This document shows, one piece after another, positions 5,172-51,684 of a stretch of 64,000 nt of DNA. Every line of letters starts with the position of its first letter. Position 1 is the first letter of the stretch. Origin of the DNA: a virus (taxonomy: Duplodnaviria > Heunggongvirae > Uroviricota > Caudoviricetes). The stretch is from the IMG/VR virus record IMGVR_UViG_2531839524_000004; one strand, given 5' to 3'. A program made the translations under genes and the position numbers. The notes under the pieces were generated by a model, which was not told the origin of the DNA, made no database searches, and was given only the letters and a program-made list of their open reading frames with translations.

Positions 5172-5186
5172 AAAACAATTTGTTTT
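5172..5186. promoter_or_regulatory. operator-like palindrome AAAACAA-T-TTGTTTT
   Basis: First copy of the recurrent motif; about 65 bp upstream of the first prophage gene (5250). Confidence 0.5.
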
Positions 5187-5221
5187 CTGCCTTTTGTTGA
5201 TTGAGATAATAAACCACATAA

Positions 5222-5237
5222 GAAAACAACTTGTTTT
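5222..5237. promoter_or_regulatory. operator-like palindrome GAAAACAA-C-TTGTTTT
   Basis: Second tandem copy, 13 bp upstream of ATG 5250. Confidence 0.5.
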
Positions 5238-5249
5238 GGAGTGGTTTAA

Positions 5250-5549
5250 ATGTTGAACATTACCCAAGCCTACCAGGTGGCATTGATCAGCTCATCTCAT
5301 ACATCAGAGGAAGATGCTCGCCGATTCATGATCGCAAGCAATGAGCTGGATTGGGTTTCACAAATTGAGTACGGTTGCATTGTCCACGCCGGGTTACAGG
5401 ACGATGACTGGAAAGATGAGTTGCGTCGATATGGTATATCCGAGGGCGCGATTGCGAACATTCAGAAAGTACTTGATGTAGGCTTTGACTCTGTACATTT
5501 TGATTGTGGCGCACCGGTCGTTGAAGGGCTTGAGTGCTGGCAATGGTAA
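5250..5549 (+). CDS. hypothetical protein (first gene of the prophage early region)
   Basis: ORF track, 99 aa, acidic; preceded by two operator-like palindromes. Confidence 0.5.
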   Translation: MLNITQAYQVALISSSHTSEEDARRFMIASNELDWVSQIEYGCIVHAGLQDDDWKDELRRYGISEGAIANIQKVLDVGFDSVHFDCGAPVVEGLECWQW

Positions 5550-5585
5550 TCCGGCAATCGCTTCATACTAGATAACGGAGAATTT

Positions 5586-5771
5586 ATGCTTAAAGAAGAC
5601 TCATATCTACTAAAGGCGCTTGAAATGCGTGGCGTTGAACCTACAGTGAAAAACGCCCACGATATCTACCTTCAGTTTTCACCGGAGCTGAAACGGCTCA
5701 TAAATCAATACGGGGTTAATGACTCAAGTGTTAAAGCGATGATAGATGATGAATTAGACCATCTCATCTAA
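5586..5771 (+). CDS. hypothetical small protein
   Basis: ORF track, 61 aa; GGAG RBS 7 nt upstream. Confidence 0.4.
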   Translation: MLKEDSYLLKALEMRGVEPTVKNAHDIYLQFSPELKRLINQYGVNDSSVKAMIDDELDHLI

Positions 5772-5923
5772 TCGTTATCCTATGATAATGGTTTCACTTT
5801 GAGATTGTTATTTTTCATAGCCAAAGCTGATGTTTGTGGAAGGTGGATTGATAAACGGATGCGTATTTAGGTTATACAAGTGAGAAAATTGATAATATAT
5901 AAACGCGATTTTTATGTGATGGA

Positions 5924-6493
5924 ATGGATGTGATGGAAACCCAGAACCAACAAACAAAACCTCTGAATAACATTTATGCGTGGATTCTAGCGTTCATGCC
6001 TTTCTTCTTTGGAGTATTGCCGGAAGAGTATACCAATTACGCTATTATAATTGGGGGTGTAACTACCATCGGTTTGTTAGTAGCTGACAGAATGGCTCTA
6101 TCGGAGTCTGGCTGTGAACCACCTTCAATTCTATGGGGGGTATTCCTCCTGCCTGTCTATCTCTGGAAGCGCGCGACTATTACAAAAGGCAGCAGAGTGC
6201 CATTTATCATAATCGTTGCGTCGCTGGCTTGGATTATCTTCATCGGCATCCCACACAAGGACGAGGTTGCTCTTGAAGAAGCAGCCTGCCCTCTCGTGAC
6301 AACTATTCTGAAAGAGAATAACGGTTCGACTGCACCAAAATGTATGAAGGTGACAATAGAGGACAAGGTGACGGATAAGTTCTATAGAGCAACGGCTACA
6401 CTAGACAATGGTAATGACATTAACATTACTCTGGAACTTACCGGTGACAGGAACTTCTACGTCCGTGTTCCAAATGTTTATCTGAACAACTAA
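5924..6493 (+). CDS. hypothetical integral membrane protein
   Basis: ORF track, 189 aa; three to four hydrophobic segments followed by a soluble C-terminal domain. Confidence 0.5.
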   Translation: MDVMETQNQQTKPLNNIYAWILAFMPFFFGVLPEEYTNYAIIIGGVTTIGLLVADRMALSESGCEPPSILWGVFLLPVYLWKRATITKGSRVPFIIIVASLAWIIFIGIPHKDEVALEEAACPLVTTILKENNGSTAPKCMKVTIEDKVTDKFYRATATLDNGNDINITLELTGDRNFYVRVPNVYLNN

Positions 6494-6599
6494 CGGTTGC
6501 AACTTATTGATAATGGCGGTCACAATTTGATTCTTTTCTATAAGAATCCGTTGATCGCCACTACTCTCCTTCCATACCCGCAATCACATCCTTAAATAT

Positions 6600-7457
6600 C
6601 AATAAGTTATAGTTGTTTATACAATCAAGAAAACAACTGAATAACAGATCAACGAAACATCAACGCTTTCACCCGATTTGGTCTAAAAAATTGACGTTTT
6701 CACACATCACTGCTTATACCCGTAACTCTACGCAGCAGACAGCGCCACAGAGTCCAATTTTCACCACAGACGACTCAACACACTACCAACAAAAACACAC
6801 GCTCAAAATCGCTCCCGTTGCGTTACACAACCATATAAACAACATATTTTCAGGTATAACAAAACAACTAAATAACACATATGCCATTACCCAAAACAAC
6901 CAACCTCTTTATGGCAGGCTACCGAAAAGACCCACCTCTTCTCCCCAGGCTACCGGACAACCAACCTAACTTTCACAGGCAATCCGAAAACATTCATACG
7001 CGCGATACCCACGACACGCCATTACCCAAACAGCGAAGAAACACCTGAACCGCTGAAACCCCAACGAAGCCTGTAACCGCAAGGTTTCTCTCAATCCCAA
7101 AAGACACGAAACATAACAATCACGGGAAACGCCATTACCCAATACACGAATAACTACAAAAGCCTTTCACACACTCCAGACAAACAACTCAAACACAACA
7201 ACGAAAGGAATCGCCCACCTGCCATTACTCCATACACGGAGAAGAACAATCACCAAAACGACGAGAACACCCCATAGAAGAACCACCGCAAAACGAACGA
7301 AACCACATACACCGACAGAGAAAACAACACACCCAATTCACCAACAGAAATAGTCGCCGTATAGGACATTCTGGAAGGAGTGAGCATTAACGCCTATAGA
7401 GAGGTTGAGACAGATAAAACACAACATGTATAGCGAAGAAGCCAGGTATGTATAAGT
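6600..7457 (+). repeat. A+C-rich, G-poor non-coding region with four GCCATTAC(C/T)C-initiated repeat units
   Basis: Units begin at 6883, 7018, 7131 and 7221; the only ORF (6613-6969) translates to low-complexity T/Q/N/P/H sequence; strong strand asymmetry visible by eye. Confidence 0.6.
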
Positions 7458-7480
7458 GGGGAGGGAAGGAGGGGTGTCGC
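7458..7480 (+). terminator. intrinsic terminator closing the A+C-rich region
   Basis: ggagg-ggtgtcg-cctcc followed by TTTTT. Confidence 0.55.
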
Positions 7481-7553
7481 CTCCTTTTTCGTATTTATTC
7501 AACTCCTGATTTTATCCCCCCGTAACACCCCTACGGTCAGCCTTCGGTCCATA

Positions 7554-7696
7554 CAGGGAAAAGGCTGCATCCCGCTACAGAAACGGCTGGGTTGCCTTCG
7601 GGGAACGGCTGGAGGTTTTCAGGGAAACGGTCGAGTTGCCTGTGTGGATTTCGGGAAAAGGCTCGATGCCGGTTCAGGAACGGTGGCGTACCGGTA
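7554..7696. repeat. tandem array of about six degenerate 20-25 bp direct repeats (core GGGAAA(A/C)GGCT)
   Basis: cagggaaaaggctgcatcc / cagaaacggctgggttgcc / ggggaacggctggagg / agggaaacggtcgagttgcc / cgggaaaaggctcgatgcc / caggaacggtggcgtacc. Confidence 0.6.
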
Positions 7697-8017
7697 TAGC
7701 GAGAGGGAGAGTTGCGGCTACCCACCTGTAATGTGCGGGAAGAAGAGAGGCGCTCACGTAGGCGGACTTGCTTACCGCTGGATTCCCTCTGAATGCCCAG
7801 CTACAGCGTAATTGTGCCAGACAGCCAACGGGTCACAATCGATTTCAGTAGGTTTTTGGGGAGAGGATTACTCTGCCACCAGCCACTTTCGGCCACTAAA
7901 TCAGAATAATGTAAAAAGTGTACTCGGTACTGAACCTGAAAACTCACTGCCAAAACCACATTCACCGGAATAAAATCCTTTTTCGCCTGTGCGTTATTGC
8001 GATAATAACACCATCAA

Positions 8018-8032
8018 GAAAACATGTTGTTT
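8018..8032. promoter_or_regulatory. operator-like palindrome (variant GAAAACA-TG-TTGTTT)
   Basis: Immediately upstream of the RBS of gene 8045. Confidence 0.45.
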
Positions 8033-8044
8033 AAGGATTGCTTT

Positions 8045-8374
8045 ATGTTTACAAATATCGACATCAACCAAATCAAGAAATTAACTCAAAAAGAGTTTGA
8101 TCAGTTTTATGAGTTAGAAGGTTGGTCTTCCACTCTGATCAATTCAAGATGGGTGCTGGAACTGATGACTCGTGATGACGCACCTGCTTTGATGATCAGC
8201 GACCTGGGTGAAGATGCTGACTTTATGGATATGAGCGAATTTTGTGTGGACACATACAACCGCAGCCAGAAGTACTACTTCACATGCGATAGCGAAAATG
8301 ACGTGATTTCTAAGGTCTATCTTCACCTCGTCCAGCATTGGAACGTTCAGGAGTTTCTTGAAGTATTCGAGTAA
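8045..8374 (+). CDS. hypothetical acidic protein
   Basis: ORF track (8024-8374); start moved to MFTNIDI because ATG 8024 lies inside the operator motif and AAGGA RBS precedes 8045. Confidence 0.5.
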   Translation: MFTNIDINQIKKLTQKEFDQFYELEGWSSTLINSRWVLELMTRDDAPALMISDLGEDADFMDMSEFCVDTYNRSQKYYFTCDSENDVISKVYLHLVQHWNVQEFLEVFE

Positions 8375-8383
8375 CCCCAACCA

Positions 8384-8410
8384 AAGCCAGCATTGCTGGC
8401 TTAATTTCTC
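8384..8410 (+). terminator. hairpin after gene 8045-8374
   Basis: aagccagc-att-gctggctt followed by AATTTCTC (weak U-tract). Confidence 0.4.
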
Positions 8411-8501
8411 TATAGCCGCAGGGAAGAACCTGCATATAGCTCATGCACCTGATCAATATGCTTTGTAGCCGTTTTCTTACTGGTATTATTTACGCCATTG
8501 A

Positions 8502-8516
8502 GAAAACAAGTTGTTT
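8502..8516. promoter_or_regulatory. operator-like palindrome GAAAACAA-G-TTGTTT
   Basis: Abuts the RBS of gene 8528. Confidence 0.5.
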
Positions 8517-8527
8517 ACGGAGTTGTG

Positions 8528-8839
8528 ATGAAAAAATCATTGGTTCTTGGTCTGGACAAAGACCAGAAGAGAAAAGAGAAGCCTGCGCTGGTTGCTCAAT
8601 TAACTTTGCTGGACATCGTTGCCAATGGGACCTCTATTCGTCTGTTCCGTGAAACAGCGGTGTCTTTCGATAAAAACACCTTTACTCGTTATGTAATGAA
8701 TGTTCGTCGCCAGCGTGGAAAAGGCTGGGTGGCATTTCAAAGAATGTGGCCGGAACATCAGCTCGAACTTGCTTTGATGGAAGTTAACCGCGTGGCCCAG
8801 CAAGAGATTCAGAGAGCATCAGTGATGGCAATAGCCTGA
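8528..8839 (+). CDS. hypothetical basic protein
   Basis: ORF track (8498-8839); start moved to MKKSLVLG after RBS ACGGAG; lysine/arginine-rich. Confidence 0.5.
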   Translation: MKKSLVLGLDKDQKRKEKPALVAQLTLLDIVANGTSIRLFRETAVSFDKNTFTRYVMNVRRQRGKGWVAFQRMWPEHQLELALMEVNRVAQQEIQRASVMAIA

Positions 8840-8873
8840 TAATGTGCAAGTGGTAATTAGTCGACCGTACGAC

Positions 8874-8902
8874 AGCCCCGCCATCCTTACGGGGCTTTTT
8901 TG
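8874..8902 (+). terminator. intrinsic terminator
   Basis: agccccg-ccatccttac-ggggct followed by TTTTTT. Confidence 0.6.
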
Positions 8903-8965
8903 TATTGTAAGTACATACTTACGATCATAGAATAGAAAAATAACCAATACACTACGGAGAGTGAA

Positions 8966-9361
8966 ATGACCGCTAAACGCGAAAAACTGACAGTTGATGT
9001 TTACTATGCCTCTGAAACCGCCGAAGGTAAGAATGTGGCAAAAATCACCGTTGTTACGTACAACACCGAAACTGGTGCCGAAGTCCAGGCCAGTACGATC
9101 GTGCGTAAAGGTGATGCCTCCGGCGGCGAGTACGCGACTCAATACCAGTCTATTTTCGATGCAACTGACCCGCTGCTGCTGAAAATCGAGAACTACTTCC
9201 GCCAGGTTGATGAAGAGGTGTTTGAAACCATGATGAATATGGTTAACACCGTATTCGCCTCCAGCCTGAATACCAACACTACCTGGATTGGTCAGTACGG
9301 CCTGCGCATTACCTCCGGCATTCCTGCTGACACCTTAATCCCTGAAAGCGTATTCGCTTAA
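8966..9361 (+). CDS. hypothetical protein
   Basis: ORF track, 131 aa; RBS ACGGAGAG upstream. Confidence 0.55.
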   Translation: MTAKREKLTVDVYYASETAEGKNVAKITVVTYNTETGAEVQASTIVRKGDASGGEYATQYQSIFDATDPLLLKIENYFRQVDEEVFETMMNMVNTVFASSLNTNTTWIGQYGLRITSGIPADTLIPESVFA

Positions 9362-9370
9362 TCCTCTTTG

Positions 9371-9398
9371 AATGGCGCGTAAACCGCGCCATTTTCTT
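9371..9398 (+). terminator. intrinsic terminator
   Basis: aatggcgcg-taaac-cgcgccatt followed by TTCTT. Confidence 0.55.
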
Positions 9399-9405
9399 AT
9401 GCCCG

Positions 9406-9420
9406 ATAACAATTTGTTTT
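9406..9420. promoter_or_regulatory. operator-like palindrome ATAACAA-T-TTGTTTT
   Basis: Shares the extended sequence AACAATTTGTTTTCTGCC with the 5172 copy. Confidence 0.5.
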
Positions 9421-9478
9421 CTGCCTTATCTGATTTGTGAAAATGATTTCACTGAAGCAACTTAATAAGGAAACCATC

Positions 9479-9853
9479 ATGGGACTTGATATCTATATCG
9501 AGACACAGCCTAAAAACGATCTGAATAACGAGGCATCCAGAAAGCAGGTTGCTTACTTCCGTAAGTTCAATGCGCTCGTTGGGTGGATGGAGCGCAACGT
9601 AGGTGAAGTCGAAAATTGTGAGCTTTTAGAATTAACGATGAATGACATTTGTTTTCTGAAGGCTCATTTGATGCACATAAACGAAAGTAATTGCGAAGAG
9701 TACTTGCCTACCCGGGAAGGTTTTTTCTTCGGCAGTCAGGAGTACGATGAAGGTTACTGGCATGATGTGGGGCAGTTGAAAGAGCTTGTGGAAGATCTGA
9801 TTAAGAACCACGACTTTCACAATAACAGACTGACCTTCTGCGCCTGGTGGTAA
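9479..9853 (+). CDS. hypothetical protein
   Basis: ORF track (9437-9853); start moved to MGLDIYIETQ after RBS AAGGAAACC. Confidence 0.5.
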   Translation: MGLDIYIETQPKNDLNNEASRKQVAYFRKFNALVGWMERNVGEVENCELLELTMNDICFLKAHLMHINESNCEEYLPTREGFFFGSQEYDEGYWHDVGQLKELVEDLIKNHDFHNNRLTFCAWW

Positions 9854-9855
9854 AT

Positions 9856-9999
9856 ATGGGCGATTTCAAGAAACGCCTGAAGGAAAGAGCCGAGATGGTC
9901 AGAAAGCAAAACGCCTCTTCTGTCATCAGATACGCAAGGCAGTTTAGTCGCAACAACAAATCAGTTGAGGAAAAGATCCTTAGCGTAATCGGGCGATAA
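9856..9999 (+). CDS. hypothetical small basic protein (47 aa)
   Basis: Own translation MGDFKKRLKERAEMVRKQNASSVIRYARQFSRNNKSVEEKILSVIGR; starts 3 nt after the previous stop; below ORF-track cut-off. Confidence 0.3.
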   Translation: MGDFKKRLKERAEMVRKQNASSVIRYARQFSRNNKSVEEKILSVIGR

Positions 10000-10049
10000 T
10001 TATTAAGGCCATCAGCATTGGTGGCCTTAAATGACCATCTTGTTTCCCG

Positions 10050-10134
10050 CAGGCTAAAAACACCAACCTCTTCCCTCCAGGCAACCGACAAACCCACCTG
10101 TTCCCGTCCGGCTACCGTAACTTTCCACTTTGAC
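10050..10134. repeat. second, shorter copy of the A+C-rich element seen at 6893-6990
   Basis: Shares ...aaaacaccaacctctt..caggc.accg..acccacct.ttc..c.ggctaccg... blocks with 6893-6990. Confidence 0.5.
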
Positions 10135-10168
10135 GCCTTATTCGTACAACGATAATTAACGCCAACAA

Positions 10169-10183
10169 GAAAACAATTTGTTA
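10169..10183. promoter_or_regulatory. operator-like palindrome GAAAACAA-T-TTGTTA
   Basis: 20 bp upstream of ATG 10204, RBS AAGGAA between. Confidence 0.5.
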
Positions 10184-10203
10184 TTTACGATAAGGAATTA
10201 ATC

Positions 10204-10686
10204 ATGAATTTTATCGCTACTGTAAACGCACCCGCACATGGCAATATCGCTGTAACGTTCTCTGACATTGAAAAACGAGTACTTGGTGCATGGCGCGACA
10301 ATGAGACGGTAGAACTGTCAGCACAAGAAAAATGCATTATTGCACGCGACATCATTGGCAATCGTCGTTACTCGCGGGTATTTGAGAAAGCGTATGTGGT
10401 AAATTCTGGATTCGGAACGTTCGTCTTTCCGGTGCGCTCCGGGCGATTCTGCCAGTCCAAGCTGATTGAGTTCGCTACGCAGATTTCTGTCTGGATTAAA
10501 ACTCAATCGTCGTTCAAATTTTCCGACGATGAAGCAGTATCGCAGGGGATGCGGATCGCCAACAATGCAATTAAATGCAAAAACATTACGTATACCGCTG
10601 GCGTTGATACATGGAAACTGTTTTGCGCTAACTTTATGCTGAATGTATACGCAAGCAACCGCATCCACATCCTTGATGGCGTGTAA
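10204..10686 (+). CDS. hypothetical protein
   Basis: ORF track, 160 aa. Confidence 0.55.
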   Translation: MNFIATVNAPAHGNIAVTFSDIEKRVLGAWRDNETVELSAQEKCIIARDIIGNRRYSRVFEKAYVVNSGFGTFVFPVRSGRFCQSKLIEFATQISVWIKTQSSFKFSDDEAVSQGMRIANNAIKCKNITYTAGVDTWKLFCANFMLNVYASNRIHILDGV

Positions 10687-10694
10687 CTGAGAAG

Positions 10695-10850
10695 AGGGCC
10701 AGAAACGGCCCTTTATCTATAGCCACCAGCTGCCGCAGGGAAATTTTCAGAAACGGCGAGGAACGTATTCATGAGCCGACGGGAAACGGCCAGGATTTTT
10801 TTCGGGAAACGGCTGCATTCGCCTTTATGTAGAAAAAACATCGGGAAGCT
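10695..10850. repeat. second array of GGGAAACGGC-type direct repeats
   Basis: ccagaaacggccc / cagggaaattttc / agaaacggcgagg / cgggaaacggccagg / cgggaaacggctgc; first unit doubles as a terminator-like hairpin (agggcc-agaaac-ggccct). Confidence 0.5.
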
Positions 10851-11278
10851 GGTGGAATCCAACCAGCGGTTGTCGGACAGGTGAGCGGGGAAAATTATGA
10901 TGACTTTCGTCGCCTGAGACATCCAGATTTCTTTCGTAGCATAATCACATACGTGATTAAGTGGTGTGATTATGTGAAAAATCACGCGCACATAATACGC
11001 GAGCGGATACGGAACAAAACAAAATGCCGATCCGCGCCGACAAATAAACGCGGATCACATAGCAAGACTAAAAGCCAATGATTAACCATATTCTATAGCG
11101 CAATATAACGCGTTTTAAGCGCGTTAATGTGTTAAGTAATGGGTATGTACTGGCAAGGATATAAAAGCGCGTCTATGGCGTCATTTTGGCGCTTATTTTT
11201 ATGTTGTTGGAGTGAGTTAAAGACAATAAAAAACGCGCCAATGATGGCGCGTTATGGTGGGAGTATTGGAAACGAAAA

Positions 11279-11297
11279 AGCGCCCATAGTGGGCGCT
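11279..11297 (-). terminator. hairpin AGCGCCCA-tag-TGGGCGCT, copy 1 (end of the minus-strand operon)
   Basis: 8-bp stem; on the minus strand it is followed by TTTTTCG; sits directly 3' of the 76-aa gene. Confidence 0.55.
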
Positions 11298-11302
11298 CGA
11301 TT

Positions 11303-11533
11303 TTATTTGTGTAAACTGATTTTAAATCCCATTTCTACAAACGCTTTTAACATTAAAAATATATCAGCGTCGTTCACGTCTGCTTTTTTTCGCTCCTGGT
11401 CGCTCAATAAGTCAATTTTGCGCGTCGTTTCATCTATAAGCTCGACTGAACGCCCAGCGTAACCAGCGATCCCAGCGATGCGATTAACATAATATTCATT
11501 GTGGACGTTAACGTCAGCGATAAGAACAAACAT
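11303..11533 (-). CDS. hypothetical protein (third gene of an AT-rich operon)
   Basis: ORF track, 76 aa. Confidence 0.5.
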   Translation of the reverse strand: MFVLIADVNVHNEYYVNRIAGIAGYAGRSVELIDETTRKIDLLSDQERKKADVNDADIFLMLKAFVEMGFKISLHK

Positions 11534-11553
11534 GATTAAGCTCCTTAAAAAAA

Positions 11554-11757
11554 TTAAATAGAATTTTGAAGTTTTCCGATTAATGCGCTTAAACGTAAGT
11601 ATTCACGTTTGCGCTTGCAATCTCGCTTGCTGTTAAGCAAATCAGAAAACGTAAAATTTAATTGGTCGCGTTGCGCGATCAAATCATCGATTAATTCCAG
11701 TTTATAAGCGCGATACTTTGCGCGATATTCCGCGCGGATCTTGTCATAGCTGACCAT
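11554..11757 (-). CDS. hypothetical basic coiled-coil protein (67 aa)
   Basis: ORF track gives 11554-11802; start moved to the internal ATG (MVSYDKIRAEY) because AAAGGAG RBS precedes it and the annotated N-terminus is encoded by the hairpin repeat. Confidence 0.45.
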   Translation of the reverse strand: MVSYDKIRAEYRAKYRAYKLELIDDLIAQRDQLNFTFSDLLNSKRDCKRKREYLRLSALIGKLQNSI

Positions 11758-11778
11758 TTTTAAAGCTCCTTTAAAGCG

Positions 11779-11797
11779 CCCATAGTGGGCGCTTGAT
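11779..11797 (-). repeat. hairpin AGCGCCCA-tag-TGGGCGCT, copy 2 (intercistronic)
   Basis: Identical 19-bp hairpin plus shared flanks (aaagcgcccatagtgggcgct.gatt) between the 216-aa and 67-aa genes. Confidence 0.55.
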
Positions 11798-11805
11798 TCC
11801 ATTAA

Positions 11806-12456
11806 TTACGCTTTGAAAGCATCAGCTAAATAATTGTAGAAATCATTTTTAATGAAGCGATATTGCTGAGTACCAGCTTTGGCGCTCCCAGCTCCTTTGA
11901 CTTTTTCAACAAGTCCAAGACGTTCGCAAAGATTGATCAACTGGTTGGCTTGAGTATAGCCAGCGTCCAATTTAATTTCGCACGCTTTTTTAGCTTCATT
12001 CATTAAATCGAAAACAGCGCCATTGGTGAACGTGTCGATCTCGTCGTTAATCATATCGATTAAAGCGAATACACGAGATCCTGACATATCAGCGACGGAA
12101 TAAACACATTTACCAGCTTTAATGGATTTAACCAGATAAACCAGTTTTTCCAGTGAATAACTATTAGTCATTGCATCACGAAAAAATACTTCTGGCGCTT
12201 GTTTGCTTGCTTTAATCGCATAGTAGAAAACAGAGCATAATTTATCGTCTTCTACTGCGTTTACGACGTTGTTGATGAAGTAAGCAAGTTTAGTGGTCGC
12301 AGCTTGCATATTTGCTTTGTCTGCTTTAGTGTGCGTACCATTTTTATAATGTTCGTTATATGTTTGAGTTGCCAGATCTGCTTTTTCGCGCAGTTCATCG
12401 GATACAATGGATGCAGCTTCAATGATGGATTTTTTAGAAATGATAATGTTAGCCAT
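11806..12456 (-). CDS. hypothetical protein (first gene of the AT-rich operon)
   Basis: ORF track, 216 aa; AT-rich relative to neighbours; AT-rich promoter region 12457-12690 upstream. Confidence 0.6.
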   Translation of the reverse strand: MANIIISKKSIIEAASIVSDELREKADLATQTYNEHYKNGTHTKADKANMQAATTKLAYFINNVVNAVEDDKLCSVFYYAIKASKQAPEVFFRDAMTNSYSLEKLVYLVKSIKAGKCVYSVADMSGSRVFALIDMINDEIDTFTNGAVFDLMNEAKKACEIKLDAGYTQANQLINLCERLGLVEKVKGAGSAKAGTQQYRFIKNDFYNYLADAFKA

Positions 12457-12696
12457 GATAATTTTTCCTTATGTAAATTTAAAATTTATTGTCGTTAGCG
12501 TCTTCGCTTTCGACGAGTTCAATTATCGATACGCGAAAAAAGATTGCAAGTGTTTTTTTAAAATTTTTTGCAGGGATGAAAGTCCTAGAAATAAAAGCGA
12601 GATCGTCGAAGGTGTTCCCTAAATAAATAATCGATTCCGGCTTTCGACCTTATATATATTTAGATTATTTGATTTATAGATATAAAGAAGTGATGT

Positions 12697-12726: not shown

Positions 12727-12739
12727 TAACCTTATAGAT

Positions 12740-13048: not shown

Positions 13049-13051
13049 AAC

Positions 13052-13576
13052 TCAAAAAGGCAAAATTCGTTCAACCCAATCGAACAAAACAACTATTTTT
13101 CTACCGTTCTCGACACGTAGTGTAACCTGACAAGCATCTGCGCCTGCTGACACCCCCTCAATTTCACGGCCATCCGCCATGTACACCCTTATAGATTTGT
13201 TTGCTTTGTAGGCTTGGTTGCAAATTGCAAAAAAATCGCGGCGTGATGGCCGATTATCGACATAATCAGGGTGAACTGTTAGTCGACCTTTGAAATCGTG
13301 TGCGATACTGTCAACCACACCTGATTCAATTGTACTAATGCGTTCAAGTGGGAGCCTTATACGATTTTCTTTGTCAAAAGGGGCTGGGCAAAGGTCAACT
13401 TTGTTACGAGATGGCATGAGGCCATAAACGTACATGCAAAACGCCTGGCCATCTTCGAGAGTGACCCTTACAGGAATTTGTTCTCTGCGCCAGAACATCA
13501 GTAGTTTTTCAACGTTAGTGTAATCTCGCGGCCAGAGTTCAGCTTGGATACCGTAGGTAATATCTTTGGTTGTCAT
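13052..13576 (-). CDS. hypothetical protein
   Basis: ORF track gives 13052-13654; start set at the internal Met (MTTKDITYG) to avoid overlap with the upstream lipoprotein gene. Confidence 0.45.
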   Translation of the reverse strand: MTTKDITYGIQAELWPRDYTNVEKLLMFWRREQIPVRVTLEDGQAFCMYVYGLMPSRNKVDLCPAPFDKENRIRLPLERISTIESGVVDSIAHDFKGRLTVHPDYVDNRPSRRDFFAICNQAYKANKSIRVYMADGREIEGVSAGADACQVTLRVENGRKIVVLFDWVERILPF

Positions 13577-13580
13577 GTCA

Positions 13581-14071: not shown

Positions 14072-14350
14072 TTATTTTAATCTGCTTAATAGCGTTTCGA
14101 GATCTTCCTTTGTCATATTAGAGTTCTCATAGATACGCATGATTTTCTCACGAGTCTTAGCGGAAGCCCCGACAGAAGATATAACCTTGTCAAAGTCGGC
14201 CATTGTCAATTGTTCCAGAATGGTATTTATGACTTCAGCCTTAGACATTTTGATATTTTTTTCTTTTAGTTTCACTTGAAACTTTCCAAGTTTGTCATTG
14301 GCCTTATCAGACAATGCTACCTGACAATAAGTTGTTTTCTTTTCGCTCAT
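14072..14350 (-). CDS. hypothetical protein
   Basis: ORF track, 92 aa; starts 3 nt after the helicase stop. Confidence 0.5.
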   Translation of the reverse strand: MSEKKTTYCQVALSDKANDKLGKFQVKLKEKNIKMSKAEVINTILEQLTMADFDKVISSVGASAKTREKIMRIYENSNMTKEDLETLLSRLK

Positions 14351-18901: not shown

Positions 18902-19168
18902 ATGACGTTAACCGATAAACAAAAGGACATCATCAAAACGCTCAATCTCGGTTATGAGCGAGGTCATCTACTTGATCTGGACGAATTGCTTGAAGTTTTG
19001 CCGTACAAGACAACCAAGCAAAGTATCCAGTTCTCAATTCGCGCTCTGATAAAAAAGGGGCTTGTGGAGAAAGGGCATACGCGCCAACGCAGTGACAATC
19101 GCTATCACCGCCGAACTCTTGGGTTAACCACTTTAGGTCGAGCCAAAGCGAAGTTACTGGTGATGTAA
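18902..19168 (+). CDS. hypothetical small protein, possible winged-helix DNA-binding fold
   Basis: ORF track, 88 aa, basic C-terminus; fold assignment is a guess. Confidence 0.35.
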   Translation: MTLTDKQKDIIKTLNLGYERGHLLDLDELLEVLPYKTTKQSIQFSIRALIKKGLVEKGHTRQRSDNRYHRRTLGLTTLGRAKAKLLVM

Positions 19169-19286: not shown

Positions 19287-19301
19287 GAAAACAAGTTGGT
19301 T
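19287..19301. promoter_or_regulatory. operator-like palindrome GAAAACAA-G-TTGGTT
   Basis: First of two copies ahead of the small terminase gene. Confidence 0.45.
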
Positions 19302-19312
19302 AGAAAATGCAG

Positions 19313-19328
19313 TAAACAAGTTGTTTTA
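19313..19328. promoter_or_regulatory. operator-like palindrome TAAACAA-G-TTGTTTTA
   Basis: Second copy, about 40 bp upstream of ATG 19367. Confidence 0.5.
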
Positions 19329-48660: not shown

Positions 48661-48737
48661 ATGTTTCAGTTTCTTTATCAACCTACTAATTAACCTTTAC
48701 ACCGCAGCCGTAGGCATTTAGGCTATATCACATATAA

Positions 48738-48753
48738 GAAAACAAGTTGTTTC
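48738..48753. promoter_or_regulatory. operator-like palindrome GAAAACAA-G-TTGTTTC
   Basis: 35 bp upstream of the parA-like start. Confidence 0.5.
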
Positions 48754-48787
48754 AGACGATAATTATATACGCAAAGGGAACTCTCCA

Positions 48788-49456
48788 ATGACCAAGATCT
48801 TTGTGGTTGGCGGCACAAAGGGCGGGCCTGGCAAATCCACCGTTGCCCAGCAAATTGCCGTTTGCCTGAAAGTCAAAAAGAAGAAGAAGGTTTATATCAC
48901 TGATATAGATATTCAGCGCACGACAACAAGCTGGTGTGAAGACCGTCGACAGAACGAAGACCTTGAGCTGATTCCTTTTGCATACGTTCAGGATGACATC
49001 ATTAAGCACCTAAAATCGCTTCAGGGTAGAGCTGAGTTTGTAGTGGTAGATGCTGGTGGCTTTGACTCCGAAATTCAGCGACAAGCGATGCTGATGGCCG
49101 ACGTTATCATTATCCCGCTGCGTCCTAAGCGTCGTGATTTGAAATCTTTACGTGACATCGATCCTATTATCGACAATGTTCGTAATGTAAACGATAAAGT
49201 GAAGGTCCGCGCGGTCATGAACCAGTGCCCGGCTTTGCCATCACAAGTGTCTCGCATTTTGGCGGCTAAAGAGATTGTCGAGACGTTTGGCATCGAGTCT
49301 GCGCCAGTCAATTTATATAACCGCAACGTCTATGATGATGCGGAAGAGTCTGGTCGTTCTATCTTTGAAATGACCGGTAGCGAGCGCGACAAAAAGGCGG
49401 AAGCCGAGTTTGAAGAATTTGTAGATTATCTGTTGAGTCTGGAGGAAGAAGAATAA
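48788..49456 (+). CDS. ParA-type partition ATPase
   Basis: Deviant Walker A GGTKGGPGKST, Walker B-like FVVVDAGG; 222 aa. Confidence 0.85.
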   Translation: MTKIFVVGGTKGGPGKSTVAQQIAVCLKVKKKKKVYITDIDIQRTTTSWCEDRRQNEDLELIPFAYVQDDIIKHLKSLQGRAEFVVVDAGGFDSEIQRQAMLMADVIIIPLRPKRRDLKSLRDIDPIIDNVRNVNDKVKVRAVMNQCPALPSQVSRILAAKEIVETFGIESAPVNLYNRNVYDDAEESGRSIFEMTGSERDKKAEAEFEEFVDYLLSLEEEE

Positions 49457-49815
49457 TGTCCATGAAAATGGGTGACCTAGCAAAGCGCAAAGAGCCTGAT
49501 GCACCGGCTAAGAACACAACTCCTTTGCGCCAACCAGTCAGACCACAGGGACGCCCGACTCGTGGCAAAGAGAAAATTAAAAGCCGCACAATGTCACTGG
49601 AGGACGAATACTTCGAACTGCTGGAGATGATGAAGTTCATCCCTCGCTTCGAGAAGTTCACTCGTTCTGACGTGATTCGAGCAGCCATTTTCCATCTGGC
49701 AGAGAAGTCACCGCAGGAAATCGAGGACATCGTGAAATTGAATGAGGCGATCACCGCTGCCGATGTCACGATGCGTACCGATGAAATCAAACGAGAGTTG
49801 ATGAAGAAAGGTTAA
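49456..49815 (+). CDS. small partition partner, ribbon-helix-helix-like (ParG-type, putative)
   Basis: 119 aa translationally coupled to parA (TAATG); basic disordered N-terminus then RHH-like MSLEDEYFELLEMM...RSDVIRAAI. Confidence 0.55.
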   Translation: MSMKMGDLAKRKEPDAPAKNTTPLRQPVRPQGRPTRGKEKIKSRTMSLEDEYFELLEMMKFIPRFEKFTRSDVIRAAIFHLAEKSPQEIEDIVKLNEAITAADVTMRTDEIKRELMKKG

Positions 49816-49867
49816 AAATCATGCATTGGCGCGTACATTGCGCCAATGCATAACTACAGTGTCAGCT

Positions 49868-50635
49868 TTATGCCGCGCTAACACTATGTTCAGTCCTAAC
49901 CACCCCAACCTTCACAAAAGGGCTACCGTAGCTTGGTGGCTTCTTGATTAATTTGCCTACATACAGTTTTCTAATATGCTCATCGGCTATTCTGCCAACA
50001 AATTCATAACGTTTTGTGTCGGGGCCAAGAGCTATATCCCTTGTAAAGTACTGCTGAGAACCGGCTTTGACCCAGCATTCAATCTGATAAACTTCCATTA
50101 TCAGCCCACCATATGTAGCGTAGGCATATTTGAGATTCTCGTCTCTTGGAACCTTTGCCCATACGCCACGCGTAGCTTCATATAATGCCAGAGCGGACAT
50201 TCCTGACTTGTAGGTGCTGTTTAGCAGGAAGGCAAGACCGGCGTGCTCAGGAGCAATTTCAGTTTCCTCTTGCAGCACTAAGTGATGGTAGGCGTCCAGT
50301 GATATTCTGCCCATCATGGAACCACTTCCTCGTACCTTATTCGTAAGCTCTCCGACCCCCATAAGGTCGATGCATGTCGCCTCAACAAGTTTGGCTGTGG
50401 TTTCATCCATACCATGACGAAGTATATCTATGCCTAATTTTTTATTAGCCAAAAGTTCTTTGATCCGCATGGATTTGGGAGAGTCATCGGGATACTTGAT
50501 GTGATCGAGACAACGAGTCGATTTGCCTTTTCCTATGTAAAACGGTCTTTTCATCTTGTCTTCTGTATCATAGAGACAGTAAACATAGTATTTAGCCTTA
50601 TCCAATGATCTCGCGTATACCGATAAATCGTCCAT
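49868..50635 (-). CDS. GIY-YIG nuclease-domain protein
   Basis: N-terminal YYVYCLYDTEDK..KRPFYIGKGKSTRCLDH matches the GIY-(10-11)-YIG...R...H layout; 255 aa. Confidence 0.65.
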   Translation of the reverse strand: MDDLSVYARSLDKAKYYVYCLYDTEDKMKRPFYIGKGKSTRCLDHIKYPDDSPKSMRIKELLANKKLGIDILRHGMDETTAKLVEATCIDLMGVGELTNKVRGSGSMMGRISLDAYHHLVLQEETEIAPEHAGLAFLLNSTYKSGMSALALYEATRGVWAKVPRDENLKYAYATYGGLIMEVYQIECWVKAGSQQYFTRDIALGPDTKRYEFVGRIADEHIRKLYVGKLIKKPPSYGSPFVKVGVVRTEHSVSAA

Positions 50636-50745
50636 TATTGCATCTCTTTGCTACTGACTAATGCGTTCTATTTTACACATAAGTTTTTAATCAATTTAAC
50701 AGGCTCAAAGTGTAGAGCTTCTGGGCGTCTAAGACGACAAGTTAG

Positions 50746-50802
50746 CCTGCTTCTGTATATATAAATAATAAGTAACTTATTAAATATATATACGGAAGCA
50801 GG
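50746..50802. repeat. 57-bp AT-rich palindromic repeat, copy 2
   Basis: Identical to 19193-19249; lies in the divergent promoter region between the GIY-YIG gene and gene 50910. Confidence 0.8.
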
Positions 50803-50909
50803 TCTTTTAAAAGACACCACCAGAACAACTCCCTTCCGTTTCCACTTCCAAAAACTGCCACCAGTCGCTATCATCCGCTCATTGTGATAAGTAAGTAACT
50901 ACCTACCAG

Positions 50910-51659
50910 GTGAGCCACATGAGCCAAATCTTTTTCGATACCATCGACAACGACCAGTACGACTTCATGACAGAGTGGAATACCGCTGTTATGGACAAGT
51001 GGGTCGCTGAAAACATTGGTTTGTCGCGCTGTAAAGACGAGGCTGAACTCTTCGAGACGAAGTGGTTTGATTACCGCGACATGCATCCTCTCATGGCCAC
51101 CTGTCTTTTTACGGAGGCATACAAACGTCAGTACTCAAATATCATGCTGACGCACGGTCGCGAACACTTTGAAACAGCTCCGTTCACCACCGGGTTAAAA
51201 CGCCTGCCTTATCAGGAGTTGTCGACTGCCAATAAAACGTCGCTATGGAAAGCACGCCAGTTTGCGGATCGCTATTGCTGCTCATACGACTACTTTATCT
51301 CCACCGTTCTTTCCGCAGCTGCACGACGGCTGTGGGACAAGCTGCCGCGCCCACAGCATTTGTGGCAGCCAGAACTGATTGAGATATTTGAAGAGAAATT
51401 AGCCAGACGCGCAACAACCCGTCTGGATGACTCTCTGGTTAGCTTTAAGCATATGGGAGACATGCAGTTCAACCCGATTCAGGAAAGCTATTTTGAGTGG
51501 ATTCTGGAGCGTTTGCGCACCATCCCTCGCAGCAAGCGCATACGCGCAATTTTCTCCGCTATCTGGCTAATGGAAATCGTTCCAGAGCGCCTTATTTCCG
51601 CCCACTTTCCAGAAGAACTGGAAGAAGCACGGCGGTTTATTGATCCCCTATCTAATTAA
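50910..51659 (+). CDS. hypothetical protein (replication module; initiator or helicase loader is possible)
   Basis: ORF track, 249 aa, immediately upstream of the DnaB-like helicase. Confidence 0.45.
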   Translation: MSHMSQIFFDTIDNDQYDFMTEWNTAVMDKWVAENIGLSRCKDEAELFETKWFDYRDMHPLMATCLFTEAYKRQYSNIMLTHGREHFETAPFTTGLKRLPYQELSTANKTSLWKARQFADRYCCSYDYFISTVLSAAARRLWDKLPRPQHLWQPELIEIFEEKLARRATTRLDDSLVSFKHMGDMQFNPIQESYFEWILERLRTIPRSKRIRAIFSAIWLMEIVPERLISAHFPEELEEARRFIDPLSN

Positions 51660-51668
51660 CTAATACTA

Positions 51669-51684
51669 GAAAACAATTTGTTTA
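51669..51684. promoter_or_regulatory. operator-like palindrome GAAAACAA-T-TTGTTTA
   Basis: 19 bp upstream of the helicase start. Confidence 0.5.

What the first reader, a model, noticed from the sequence alone, without database searches (positions are those of the whole stretch)
5172..51684. A 15-16 bp palindrome (GAAAACAA-N-TTGTTTTC) recurs upstream of at least ten transcription units across the element
Copies lie at 5172-5186, 5222-5237, 8018-8032, 8502-8516, 9406-9420, 10169-10183, 19287-19301, 19313-19328, 48738-48753 and 51669-51684, with a related tail-to-tail arrangement at 6611-6638. Each full site sits 15-75 bp upstream of a + strand start codon: every early cassette, the small terminase/late operon, parA, and the replicative helicase. 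Tandem pairs occur before the first prophage gene and before terS. A single dimeric DNA-binding protein controlling early, late, partition and replication promoters alike would be an unusual regulatory design for a lambdoid-tailed phage. The cognate protein is not identified; candidates in the window are the 88-aa protein at 18902-19168, the basic 103-aa protein at 8528-8839 and the XRE regulator at 63480-63866.
Basis: seen in the sequence. Interest (0 to 1): 0.65.

Follow-up and report, generated by a model that had tools for sequence, protein, structure and literature searches.

The report
Dispersed palindromic operator of a phage-plasmid
A 17-bp palindrome sits at fixed positions in about twenty promoters of an E. 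coli SSU5-type phage-plasmid and most likely is the operator that keeps its lytic, replication and partition genes quiet in the plasmid state, but the protein that binds it has not been identified.

Summary
GAAAACAAnTTGTTTTC (core AAACAAnTTGTTT) occurs 12 times at ≤3 mismatches against 0.76 expected. Ten strong copies lie at the stated coordinates and all are intergenic.

The window is not a lambdoid prophage with a host flank. It is 64 kb of an SSU5/pSLy3-type phage-plasmid. Complete relatives carry about 20 sites, and the consensus is unchanged in a clade with only about 70% helicase identity. Acinetobacter, Aeromonas and Moellerella relatives lack the dispersed sites.

The sites hold two fixed registers around sigma70-like promoters: 11-12 nt downstream of the -10 box, or ending 17 nt upstream of it. 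Variants show no compensatory changes, so an RNA hairpin is rejected. Published RNA-seq of a related lysogen (Cyrano) shows the downstream genes at background. The motif therefore behaves as a DNA operator for a repressor made in the lysogen.

My best candidate (about 0.4) is the 119-aa protein encoded after parA. It looks like a ParG/omega-type ribbon-helix-helix protein, and its putative DNA-reading blocks stay invariant at 48% overall identity. The main rival is an FljA-family protein with a predicted tandem Hfq-like fold, acting on 5'UTRs.

This is a new variant of a known design (P1 C1, RK2 KorB, pSM19035 omega, N15 SopB).

The parts
5171..5187 (.). Motif A site, class U (ends 17 nt before the -10 box); upstream member of a pair 51 bp apart that brackets the promoter of the 99-aa gene at 5250
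   Evidence: TAAAACAATTTGTTTTC, matrix score 25.0; context; class U geometry
5222..5238 (.). Motif A site, class D (starts 11 nt after the extended -10 TGaGATAAT); ends 11 nt before the ATG at 5250
   Evidence: GAAAACAACTTGTTTTG, score 24.5
6613..6636 (.). TTGTTT-N12-AAACAA: inner half-sites of a degenerate tandem pair in 25-bp register, at the edge of an apparently non-coding stretch of about 1 kb
   Evidence: SSU5 position 90738 and loci L083/L086 carry full tandem sites at comparable positions in this non-coding region
8018..8034 (.). Motif A site, class D, before the 109-aa cassette gene (ATG 8045)
   Evidence: GAAAACATGTTGTTTAA, score 20.2; TGcGATAAT lies 11 nt upstream
8502..8518 (.). 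Motif A site, class D, before the 103-aa cassette gene (ATG 8528)
   Evidence: GAAAACAAGTTGTTTAC, score 25.3, the best site in the window; TGgTATTAT lies 12 nt upstream
9405..9421 (.). Motif A site, class U, just after a terminator-like hairpin and 17 nt before TGtGAAAAT; precedes the 124-138-aa gene
   Evidence: GATAACAATTTGTTTTC, score 23.5
10169..10185 (.). Motif A site, class D, before the 160-aa cassette gene (ATG 10204); -35 TTGACG and -10 GATAAT lie upstream
   Evidence: GAAAACAATTTGTTATT, score 20.0
19287..19328 (.). Tandem pair of motif A sites (19287-19303 and 19312-19328), centres 25 bp apart, before terS (ATG 19367)
   Evidence: Scores 19.2 and 24.1; conserved in SSU5, pMT1 and PhiR41_1; a single site in the divergent clade
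48738..48754 (.). Motif A site in the parA promoter, ending 33 nt before the parA ATG; the only dyad-symmetric element around parA and the 119-aa gene
   Evidence: GAAAACAAGTTGTTTCA, score 22.3; identical in 71 of 71 IMG/VR parA loci; conserved island in the Eco/SSU5/KpOz alignment; no other repeat array nearby
51669..51685 (.). Motif A site before the DnaB-like replicative helicase (ATG 51703)
   Evidence: GAAAACAATTTGTTTAA, score 23.2; conserved island in the alignment
14323..14339 (.). Weak motif A-like sequence over the first codons of the 92-aa gene (- strand); significance unclear
   Evidence: GACAATAAGTTGTTTTC, score 16.4; retained at 13.8 in PhiR41_1 and CP062814
48788..49456 (+). parA: a small 222-aa Walker-type partition ATPase with no detected N-terminal DNA-binding domain (type Ib-like)
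   Evidence: Pfam MipZ, AAA_31, CbiA and ParA hits
49456..49815 (+). 119-aa protein encoded right after parA (start overlaps the parA stop): best candidate for the motif A-binding protein; putative ParG/omega-like ribbon-helix-helix centromere-binding protein
   Evidence: Invariant MGDLAK, RPQGRPTRGK..I(K/Q)SRTMS.EDE and FTRSDVIRAAI blocks across 48-100% identity; weak Pfam RHH_1 hits in 2 of 8 family members; AF2 topology compatible; expressed in the Cyrano lysogen at 89 against a median of 9.8
13052..13576 (-). FljA-family protein (174 aa from the second ATG; the longest ORF runs to 13654): rival candidate, predicted tandem Hfq/Sm-like RNA-binding fold
   Evidence: Pfam Flag1_repress E 2.5e-84; AF2 pLDDT 79; Foldseek hits to Hfq with TM 0.7-0.85; presence or absence matches the dispersed motif in 7 of 7 elements
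63480..63866 (-).
18902..19168 (+).
   Evidence: Silent in the lysogen; conserved in relatives that lack the motif

Best explanation
Motif A (core AAACAAnTTGTTT, 17 bp in all) is a double-stranded DNA operator. It is built into about 20 sigma70-type promoters of an SSU5/pSLy3-type phage-plasmid. A dimeric, element-encoded repressor made in the plasmid (lysogenic) state binds it at one or both of two fixed registers. One is centred near +13 and would block RNA polymerase or promoter escape. The other is centred near -38 and takes the place of a -35 box. Binding keeps the early cassettes, the replication genes (dnaB, cobT/dnaE, nrd), terS and, in part, parA switched off.

The most likely repressor is the 119-aa protein encoded directly after parA (49456-49815). 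I read it as a ParG/omega-like ribbon-helix-helix centromere-binding protein. Its ancestral task would be autoregulation of parA, with its operator later spreading to lytic promoters in the enterobacterial clade. The dispersed sites may also serve as centromeres.

What is shown: the motif, its excess over chance, its promoter phasing, its conservation, the absence of RNA covariation, and the silence of the downstream genes in a related lysogen.

What is inferred: repression by binding, the identity of the binder, and any centromere role.
For: Excess and location:
- 12 matches against 0.76 expected.
- All 10 strong sites are intergenic, P about 1e-10.
- Strong matrix hits in complete elements: about 18 in CP062814, 22 in SSU5 and 20 in CP027615.

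Promoter phasing over 362 distinct site contexts:
- In 126 of 128 class D contexts the -10 box ends 11-12 nt before the site.
- In all 62 class U contexts the site ends 17 nt before the -10 box, while the intervening sequence varies.

Conservation:
- The site is the conserved island in the parA, dnaB and terS upstream alignments across clades.
- The parA site is identical in 71 of 71 parA loci.

Not an RNA hairpin:
- Covariation is 0.038 against 0.075 in shuffles. The outer pairs are unpaired in 68-75 of 101 sequences.
- 181 one-sided breaks against 11 compensated changes.
- Hairpin dG is -0.7 to -1.8 kcal/mol.

Repression in the lysogen (Cyrano RNA-seq, PMC9928086 S1 Table):
- Genes behind motif A read 5.7-25 against a median of 9.8, although their promoters have near-consensus -35 and -10 boxes.

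For the 119-aa protein as binder:
- It is expressed in the lysogen (89), and parA (50) is the one partly open motif A operon.
- Its beta-strand and helix-B blocks are invariant between clades at 48% overall identity, and the motif is also invariant.
- By contrast, the putative beta-strand of the 92-aa protein diverges.
- Moellerella lacks the FljA-like and 71-aa proteins but keeps a homologue of the 119-aa protein with the strand IKSRTVSMEDE. Its only TTGTTT-N12-AAACAA in 108 kb (expected 0.03) lies about 140 bp upstream of parA, next to a matrix score-15 site.
- No other repeat array surrounds parA.
Against: - No binding data exist.
- The ribbon-helix-helix assignment of the 119-aa protein is weak. 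No Pfam hit for the window protein itself. RHH_1 appears only at E 0.005 in 2 of 8 relatives. The hhalign comparisons to CopG and ParG are not significant. The AF2 monomer has pLDDT 63 and no Foldseek match.
- Its presence does not track the dispersed motif perfectly. pMT1 keeps 4 sites without parA or the 119-aa gene. Moellerella has the protein but no dispersed sites.
- It is hard to see how SOS induction (Cyrano is induced 39-fold by ciprofloxacin, PMC9928086) would inactivate a partition protein.
- Class D sites end a median of 11 nt before the start codon, so they are also well placed for an RNA-level repressor.
- The RNA-seq comes from a related element, not from this window's element.
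Confidence: 0.4

Rival explanations
1. The FljA-family protein (13052-13576, - strand) is the cognate factor and acts on RNA. It would bind the motif in the short 5'UTRs, block the adjacent Shine-Dalgarno sequence and destabilise the mRNA, as Salmonella FljA does with fliC mRNA.
For: - Pfam Flag1_repress, E 2.5e-84.
- The predicted fold is two tandem Hfq/Sm domains.
- FljA is reported to prevent translation of fliC mRNA (PMC2652032, citing Bonifield & Hughes 2003 and Yamamoto & Kutsukake 2006).
- Of the candidates tested with a recognisable regulator family, it is the only one whose presence matches the dispersed motif in all seven elements compared. It is present in E. coli, SSU5, CP027615 and pMT1, and absent from Moellerella, Acinetobacter and Aeromonas.
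- Class D sites lie in the leader, 7-30 nt before the start codon.
- The Salmonella/Citrobacter fliC leader contains CAAGTTGT, the motif's core, about 15 nt before its Shine-Dalgarno sequence.
Against: - Class U sites lie upstream of the promoter at an exact 17-nt distance from the -10 box in 62 of 62 contexts. That is a constraint on DNA.
- The asymmetry of the site mirrors around the promoter rather than following the direction of transcription.
- There is no RNA covariation.
- The protein is only 33-35% identical in the clade that keeps an unchanged motif.
- It is expressed at only about twice background in the LB lysogen (18).
- Moellerella, which lacks it, still has the half-site pair at parA.
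- The fliC leader scores only 2.7 with the matrix.
Confidence: 0.2
2. Another element-encoded or host DNA-binding protein is the repressor. Examples are the ribbon-helix-helix-like 92-aa protein after the helicase (14072-14350, - strand) or an enterobacterial host factor.
For: - The 92-aa protein has an RHH-like pattern (KKTTYCQVALSDKANDKLGKF...MSKAEVINTILEQL).
- It is strongly expressed in the lysogen (114).
- A weak motif A-like sequence covers its start codon region.
- The dispersed motif is restricted to Enterobacteriaceae and Yersinia hosts, which a host factor could also explain.
Against: - The putative DNA-reading strand of the 92-aa protein differs between clades (TTYCQVAL against TVSCHLKL) while the motif does not change.
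- It is present in Moellerella, which has no dispersed sites.
- I know of no E. coli regulator with this consensus. This rests on my own knowledge and was not tested.
- A host factor would not explain why the site is identical at parA in 71 of 71 loci.
Confidence: 0.15
3. The palindrome is mainly an activator or promoter element. A small phage activator (for example the 71-aa winged-helix-like protein at 58316-58531) would bind at -38 of promoters that have no -35 box, as Mu Mor/C do. The genes would be silent in the lysogen because the activator is absent.
For: - Class U promoters have an extended -10 box (TGnGATAAT) and no -35 hexamer. The dyad is centred near -38.
- The 71-aa protein is silent in the lysogen (6.4).
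- Its presence or absence also matches the dispersed motif.
Against: - Class D sites are twice as common among distinct contexts (128 against 62). They lie at about +5 to +21 of promoters with good -35 (TTGAC) and -10 boxes. That is a repressor position, and those genes are silent in the lysogen.
- Moellerella lacks the 71-aa protein but keeps the parA half-sites.
Confidence: 0.1
4. The XRE-type regulator (63480-63866), homologue of Cyrano's 'putative repressor', binds motif A as a P1 C1-like master repressor.
For: - It is expressed in the lysogen (96).
- Its HTH segment is conserved between clades.
- SSU5, which lacks it, was isolated as a plaque-forming phage and could be a repressor-less derivative.
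Against: - It is absent from SSU5, which has 22 sites.
- It is present in Moellerella, with a similar recognition helix, where there are no dispersed sites.
- Its own divergent control region has no motif A (best score 6). It carries GTAAGCACTTAC-type palindromes in E. coli and pMT1, and related TTACTTAC or ACTTATAAGT sequences in CP027615 and Moellerella.
Confidence: 0.05
5. The palindrome is a passenger of a duplicated promoter cassette, or an RNA hairpin or terminator, and has no operator function.
For: - The roughly 75-bp promoter units resemble one another beyond the palindrome.
- Some class U sites directly follow terminator-like hairpins.
Against: - The palindrome is the most conserved part when flanks diverge.
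- It also occurs at promoters that do not resemble the cassettes (parA, dnaB, terS).
- Hairpin energies are negligible and covariation is below the shuffle level.
Confidence: 0.05

Closest known systems
Omega repressor of pSM19035 (inc18 plasmids) and ParG of TP228: ribbon-helix-helix partners of small ParA ATPases
   Same: - A small protein encoded next to a small Walker-type ParA.
- A flexible N-terminal tail followed by a putative strand-helix-helix core.
- It would bind short repeats in the parA promoter and autoregulate. Omega also represses several other promoters, and its operators double as centromeres (established knowledge, not tested here).
- Half-site centres are 7-8 bp apart, similar to the omega heptad and MetJ box spacing.
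   Different: - There is no detectable sequence homology.
- Each site is a single 17-bp dyad, not an array of heptads or tetramer boxes.
- About 20 promoters are involved rather than 3, and they include phage lytic, replication and packaging genes.
- Binding is not shown.
KorB of IncP plasmid RK2 (12 OB operators)
   Same: A partition-system DNA-binding protein whose palindromic sites are spread over the replicon. Many lie at fixed positions in promoters, which gives global repression together with partition (established knowledge).
   Different: KorB is a ParB-family HTH CTPase. Here the two ParB-N-domain proteins (15977-17343) are conserved in relatives without the motif, and the candidate is a small RHH-like protein. 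The sequence (TTTAGCSGCTAAA) and the site classes also differ.
C1 repressor of phage-plasmid P1
   Same: A phage-plasmid whose lytic functions are held off through many operators dispersed over a genome of about 100 kb (established knowledge).
   Different: P1 operators are asymmetric 17-mers bound by a C1 monomer. Motif A is a dyad. No C1 homologue was seen. The XRE-type candidate master repressor here seems to go with a different palindrome.
N15 SopB with dispersed centromere sites IR1-IR4
   Same: A phage-plasmid whose centromere consists of single inverted repeats scattered over the genome rather than one array (four natural IR sites, PMC7205306).
   Different: N15 has 4 sites against about 20 here. 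SopB is a type Ia ParB. A centromere role for motif A has not been tested.
FljA, repressor of phase-1 flagellin (Pfam PF03614)
   Same: The window encodes a family member, and class D sites lie in leaders just before the Shine-Dalgarno sequence. FljA acts on the fliC leader after transcription (PMC2652032).
   Different: A link between this protein and motif A is only correlative. Class U sites and the promoter phasing argue for function at the DNA level.

Membership tests
Repressor operator of a sigma70 promoter | Dyad-symmetric DNA site at a fixed position overlapping the RNA polymerase footprint | tested here: met
   The site starts 11-12 nt after the -10 box in 126 of 128 class D contexts. 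It ends 17 nt before the -10 box in 62 of 62 class U contexts. Promoter boxes were read from the sequence.
Repressor operator of a sigma70 promoter | Downstream genes are silent when the repressor is present and derepressed when the site or the protein is removed | tested here: inconclusive
   Genes behind the sites are at background in the Cyrano lysogen. No operator or repressor mutants exist, and transcription start sites are not mapped.
Ribbon-helix-helix (MetJ/Arc/CopG) DNA-binding proteins: the 119-aa protein | N-terminal beta-strand followed by two helices, recognisable by profile or fold | tested here: inconclusive
   The pattern IKSRTMSLEDEYFELL...FTRSDVIRAAI fits the family. AF2 gives helices at 48-60 and 70-84 after a coil. 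Pfam RHH_1 appears only at E 0.005 in 2 of 8 relatives. hhalign and Foldseek are not significant.
Type Ib partition system (small ParA plus small centromere-binding protein) | Walker-type ParA of about 200-230 aa without an N-terminal HTH, followed by a small DNA-binding protein gene | tested here: met
   ParA is 222 aa with MipZ, CbiA and ParA domains only. The 119-aa gene overlaps the parA stop at 49456. The conserved N-terminal MGDLAK tail fits a ParA-contacting peptide; this last point is inference.
Type Ib partition system (small ParA plus small centromere-binding protein) | The small protein binds repeats at the parA promoter (autoregulation) and a centromere | not testable with these tools
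   Motif A is the only dyad at the parA promoter. Binding and plasmid-stability assays are needed.
Replicon-wide regulon of one repressor with dispersed operators (P1 C1, RK2 KorB, pSM19035 omega type) | Many copies of one operator at promoters of functionally different operons across the replicon | tested here: met
   About 18-22 sites per complete element, before early cassettes, dnaB, cobT/dnaE, nrdB, parA, terS, a TerB-like gene and an HNH gene.
FljA family (PF03614): ORF 13052-13654 | Match to the family profile above the curated cut-off | tested here: met
   281.7 bits against a cut-off of 24.
FljA family (PF03614): ORF 13052-13654 | Binds the 5'UTR of its target mRNA and blocks translation | not testable with these tools
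   Only the tandem Hfq-like predicted fold and the leader position of class D sites bear on this.
Structured RNA element (5' hairpin or intrinsic terminator) | Base pairing kept through compensatory changes; a stable stem | tested here: not met
   Covariation is below the shuffle level, with 500 of 500 shuffles at least as high. 181 pairs are broken against 11 compensated. dG is -0.7 to -1.8 kcal/mol.
LexA (SOS) box or P1 C1 operator | CTGT-N8-ACAG dyad, or the asymmetric P1 17-mer | tested here: not met
   The consensus GAAAACAAnTTGTTTTC contains neither. The two reference consensus sequences are from my own knowledge.

The most novel reading that the evidence does not exclude
A partition protein, the small ParG/omega-like partner of ParA, has been recruited as the global silencer of a 108-kb phage-plasmid's lytic programme. 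One 17-bp dyad would serve both as a dispersed centromere and as the operator of about 20 early, replication and packaging promoters. A second dispersed palindrome (TAAGTA-N2-TACTTA), possibly bound by the XRE repressor, would control another promoter set. Plasmid segregation and the lysis-lysogeny decision would then be mechanically coupled. The co-occurring FljA-like tandem-Hfq protein might add an RNA-level layer on the same leaders.
Probability: 0.25. Interest if true: 0.8.

Novelty: new variant of a known kind. Interest (0 to 1): 0.6.

Why it matters
SSU5/pSLy3/pKpn-type phage-plasmids are common in E. coli, Klebsiella, Salmonella and Enterobacter. More than 1000 PLSDB records carry the terminase. 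They often carry resistance genes. I found no description of how they hold their lytic genes off; a 2024 review of phage-plasmids gives none for this group.

A conserved operator present in about 20 copies provides three things:
- A direct map of the repressed regulon.
- A simple handle for reporters, ChIP and engineered induction or curing.
- A testable case of a partition protein doubling as a lysogeny silencer.

The promoter-operator-RBS cassette of about 75 bp in front of many small genes may also explain how accessory genes are brought under prophage control.

Tried and rejected
RNA hairpin or terminator reading:
- Rejected by pair counts and folding energies.

Family and structure searches:
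- Pfam and PHROG scans of 30 small proteins were uninformative, apart from FljA, ParB_N, S24 and ParA domains.
- PDB sequence searches found nothing for the FljA-like protein or the 119-aa family.
- Foldseek with the low-confidence 119-aa model found nothing.
- hhalign to CopG and ParG, using sequences recalled from memory, was not significant.

Covariation between motif and protein:
- This failed as a discriminator. The motif does not vary in any element that has it.

Other dead ends:
- The p119-like hit in a 188-kb Klebsiella plasmid is an IS-flanked fragment.
- A second IMG/VR scan with ParA returned only close relatives.
- The primary FljA papers are not held in the library.
- The E. coli K-12 fliC leader shows no motif. 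The Salmonella/Citrobacter leader shares only the CAAGTTGT core.
- An exact-pattern scan of IMG/VR gives single chance hits in unrelated contigs. Most multi-hit loci checked against contigs fetched earlier were SSU5-type; the rest were not classified.
- Literature searches found no description of the motif.
- A host-factor test, scanning a full E. coli chromosome for the motif, could not be run with the tools available.

Full report
**What the window is**

Megablast shows that the window is part of an E. coli SSU5-type phage-plasmid. Positions 5000-25000 are 98% identical to 'Escherichia phage CMS-2020a' CP053388 and 95-97% identical to PhiR41_1 and Cyrano. Positions 40000-64000 match more than 1400 plasmid records, mostly non-mobilizable plasmids of about 110 kb from Escherichia, Klebsiella, Salmonella and Enterobacter. 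The genes upstream of 5000 (S24 peptidase, ApbC/MinD-like, MetG-like) are part of the element in annotated relatives. There is therefore no host flank, and 5250 is not the first prophage gene.

**The observation**

GAAAACAANTTGTTTTC with up to 3 mismatches occurs 12 times against 0.76 expected (0 of 100 shuffles). A symmetrised weight matrix separates ten strong sites (score ≥19.2) from the next best (16.4, 13.9, 13.1). The element is 17 bp long, with a nearly invariant 13-bp core AAACAAnTTGTTT. All ten are intergenic in a window that is 90% coding (P about 1e-10). The arrangement at 6611-6638 is TTGTTT-N12-AAACAA, the inner halves of a tandem pair in 25-bp register.

**Extent and conservation**

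- A complete close relative, NZ_CP062814, has about 18 strong sites. They lie before a DUF7238 gene, an HNH gene inside dnaE, cobT, dnaB, parA, terS, seven early cassettes, a TerB-like gene and nrdB.
- Salmonella phage SSU5 has 22 matrix hits (score ≥18).
- 80 IMG/VR loci centred on the helicase all carry the motif where the relevant region is present.
- The most divergent clade (helicase about 70% identical; K. pneumoniae ozaenae plasmid CP027615) has 20 sites with the same consensus.
- Y. pestis pMT1 keeps 4 sites.
- SSU5-supergroup plasmids of Acinetobacter, Aeromonas and Moellerella have no dispersed motif A.
- In alignments of the parA, dnaB and terS upstream regions across clades, the site is the conserved island.
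- 71 of 71 IMG/VR parA loci have the identical site 32-34 nt before the ATG.
- An exact-pattern scan of IMG/VR gives single hits in unrelated contigs. Most multi-hit loci that I could match to contigs fetched earlier were SSU5-type; the rest were not classified.

**Anatomy**

Over 362 distinct contexts the site takes one of two registers relative to a -10 hexamer.
- Class D (n=128): the -10 box (GATAAT or TATTAT, often with TGn, and often with a TTGAC -35) ends 11-12 nt before the site. The site therefore covers roughly +5 to +21. It ends a median of 11 nt before the start codon.
- Class U (n=62): the site ends exactly 17 nt before an extended -10 box. It occupies about -46 to -30, where no -35 hexamer is present.
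- Some promoters have both, 51 bp apart (5171/5222; SSU5 88317/88368 and 93660/93711).
- Tandem pairs 25 bp apart occur at terS and elsewhere.
- The outer two positions are asymmetric. The fuller half, GAAAACAA, always faces the promoter core, so class U sites mirror class D sites.

**DNA or RNA**

On 101 distinct 17-mers a hairpin model shows less covariation than shuffles (0.038 against 0.075; 500 of 500 shuffles at least as high). The outer pairs are unpaired in 68-75 of the sequences. My own count gives 181 one-sided breaks against 11 compensated changes. Hairpin energies are -0.7 to -1.8 kcal/mol, and the predicted leader folds do not use the palindrome. Together with the exact phasing to the -10 box and the class U sites that lie outside the transcript, this points to recognition of double-stranded DNA by a symmetric protein.

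**Function**

The LF82 study (PMC9928086) gives RNA-seq for Cyrano, a close relative, in the lysogen (S1 Table).
- Genes behind motif A sites are at background: CYRAN_101 7.5, _105 12.8, _106 12.2, _108 5.7, _111 25, terS 7, dnaB 21, cobT 7.8, nrdB 12.8. The median is 9.8.
- Several of these promoters nevertheless have near-consensus boxes.
- Maintenance genes without the motif are on: repA 133, toxin-antitoxin genes and XRE 96.
- parA (50) and the gene after it (89) are partly on.

The simplest reading is that motif A is the operator of a repressor present in the lysogen. This is an inference from a relative, not a test.

The 88-aa protein, the 103-aa protein and the XRE regulator all fail.

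**Who binds it: three further candidates**

1. *The 119-aa protein after parA.*
   - ParA is a small 222-aa Walker ATPase. The 119-aa gene overlaps its stop codon.
   - The family is very small, with 18 representatives among 1.84 billion proteins.
   - Across 48-100% identity the blocks MGDLAK, RPQGRPTRGK..I(K/Q)SRTMS.EDE and FTRSDVIRAAI are invariant while the rest drifts. Members at 28-42% identity keep I-x-S-R-x-x-S-x-E and R-S-D-V-x-R.
   - The pattern and the AF2 topology (coil, helix 48-60, helix 70-84) fit a ribbon-helix-helix protein with a flexible N-terminal tail, like ParG or omega. Profile support is weak (RHH_1 E 0.005 in 2 of 8 members).
   - It is expressed in the lysogen.
   - In Moellerella a homologue keeps the strand IKSRTVSMEDE. 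The only TTGTTT-N12-AAACAA in its 108-kb plasmid (expected 0.03) lies about 140 bp upstream of parA, next to a score-15 motif A-like site. Moellerella lacks the FljA-like and 71-aa proteins.
   - No other repeats surround parA in the window.

2. *The FljA-family protein.*
   - Pfam E 2.5e-84.
   - The model (pLDDT 79) is two tandem Hfq-like domains. This fits the reported action of FljA on fliC mRNA (PMC2652032).
   - Its presence matches the dispersed motif in all seven elements compared.
   - The verified Salmonella/Citrobacter fliC leader shares the core CAAGTTGT.
   - Against it: it is only 33-35% identical in the clade with an unchanged motif, it is barely expressed in the LB lysogen (18), and an RNA role does not explain the class U sites.

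3. *The 92-aa protein after the helicase.*
   - It also looks RHH-like and is well expressed (114).
   - Its putative reading strand differs between clades.

I therefore rank the 119-aa protein first (about 0.4), the FljA-like protein second (about 0.2), and another or a host factor third.

**Comparison with known systems**

The design is one operator at many promoters of one replicon. It resembles P1 C1, RK2 KorB, pSM19035 omega and N15 SopB with its four dispersed IR centromere sites. If the 119-aa protein is the binder, the closest analogue is omega, a ribbon-helix-helix partner of a small ParA that is both a centromere-binding protein and a multi-promoter repressor. The differences are:
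- no sequence homology;
- single 17-bp dyads instead of heptad arrays;
- about 20 promoters, including phage replication and packaging genes;
- two fixed promoter registers.

I found no paper describing this motif or the regulatory circuit of SSU5-type elements.

**Verdict**

The general reading of the interpretation (one dimeric DNA-binding regulator) holds. Its context and its candidate proteins do not. The mechanism is a new variant of a known kind, and the binder remains to be shown.

Noticed in passing
window 8908, 15963, 22760, 28255, 34756, 41675, 45772, 50892, 58979 (also 55457, 61864): A second dispersed palindrome, TAAGTA-N2(-6)-TACTTA, gives 11 matches at ≤1 mismatch against 0.05 expected. 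Variants recur in every supergroup member examined: AGTAAGCGCTTACT directly abutting TATAAT in Acinetobacter (11 copies) and AGTAA-N4-TTACT in Aeromonas. It looks like a promoter element or operator of late or other operons. GTAAGCACTTAC-type copies lie in the XRE control region, so XRE may be its binder. The conserved 88-aa winged-helix-like protein is another candidate.
   Followed up: partly
window about 19192-19250 and about 50745-50805: A near-perfect AT-rich palindrome of about 57 bp (cctgcttctgtatatataaaTAATAAGTAACTTATTAAATatatatacggaagcagg) occurs twice. One copy lies between the 88-aa gene and the terS operators. The other lies between parA and dnaB. It could be a pac site, an origin, a centromere or a recombination site.
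   Followed up: no
window 13052-13654 (-): The FljA-family 'repressor of phase-1 flagellin' homologue is predicted to consist of two tandem Hfq/Sm-like domains. That would be a structural rationale for the RNA-binding activity reported for FljA. The gene varies from 33% to 100% identity among otherwise close elements.
   Followed up: partly
window 14072-14350 (-): The 92-aa protein after the DEAD-box helicase has a ribbon-helix-helix-like N-terminus. It is among the best-expressed genes in the Cyrano lysogen (114). It is hypervariable between elements (35-100%), and genes in the same position exist in the Acinetobacter and Aeromonas relatives. It may be an immunity-type regulator with a clade-specific target.
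   Followed up: partly
window 6970-8018: A stretch of about 1 kb has no convincing ORF and shows strong AT skew (+0.18) and negative GC skew. Relatives also have an unannotated gap of 1-1.5 kb here. It is flanked by motif A half-sites and could hold an origin or non-coding RNAs.
   Followed up: no
window 1370-1759 (+): A stand-alone S24 (LexA/UmuD-like) peptidase of 129 aa has no DNA-binding domain. Its Cyrano homologue is strongly expressed in the lysogen (148). It may be relevant to the SOS inducibility reported for Cyrano.
   Followed up: no
L002 (NZ_CP062814) 11434-11450; Acinetobacter p5768 21920: The HNH/NUMOD homing-endonuclease gene that splits dnaE in relatives carries its own motif A site just upstream. 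A motif A-like sequence (score 16.7) lies at the same place in the Acinetobacter plasmid, which otherwise lacks the motif.
   Followed up: no
window 48685-48694, 51651-51660, 19271-19279: The parA, dnaB and terS upstream regions share a CTAATTAA(A/C) element. At dnaB and terS it lies 7-8 nt before the motif A site, where a -10 box is expected. This suggests a promoter class different from the GATAAT cassettes.
   Followed up: no
window 59746-60296: A cluster of four tRNA genes (Asn, Tyr, Thr, Ser) lies in the element.
   Followed up: no
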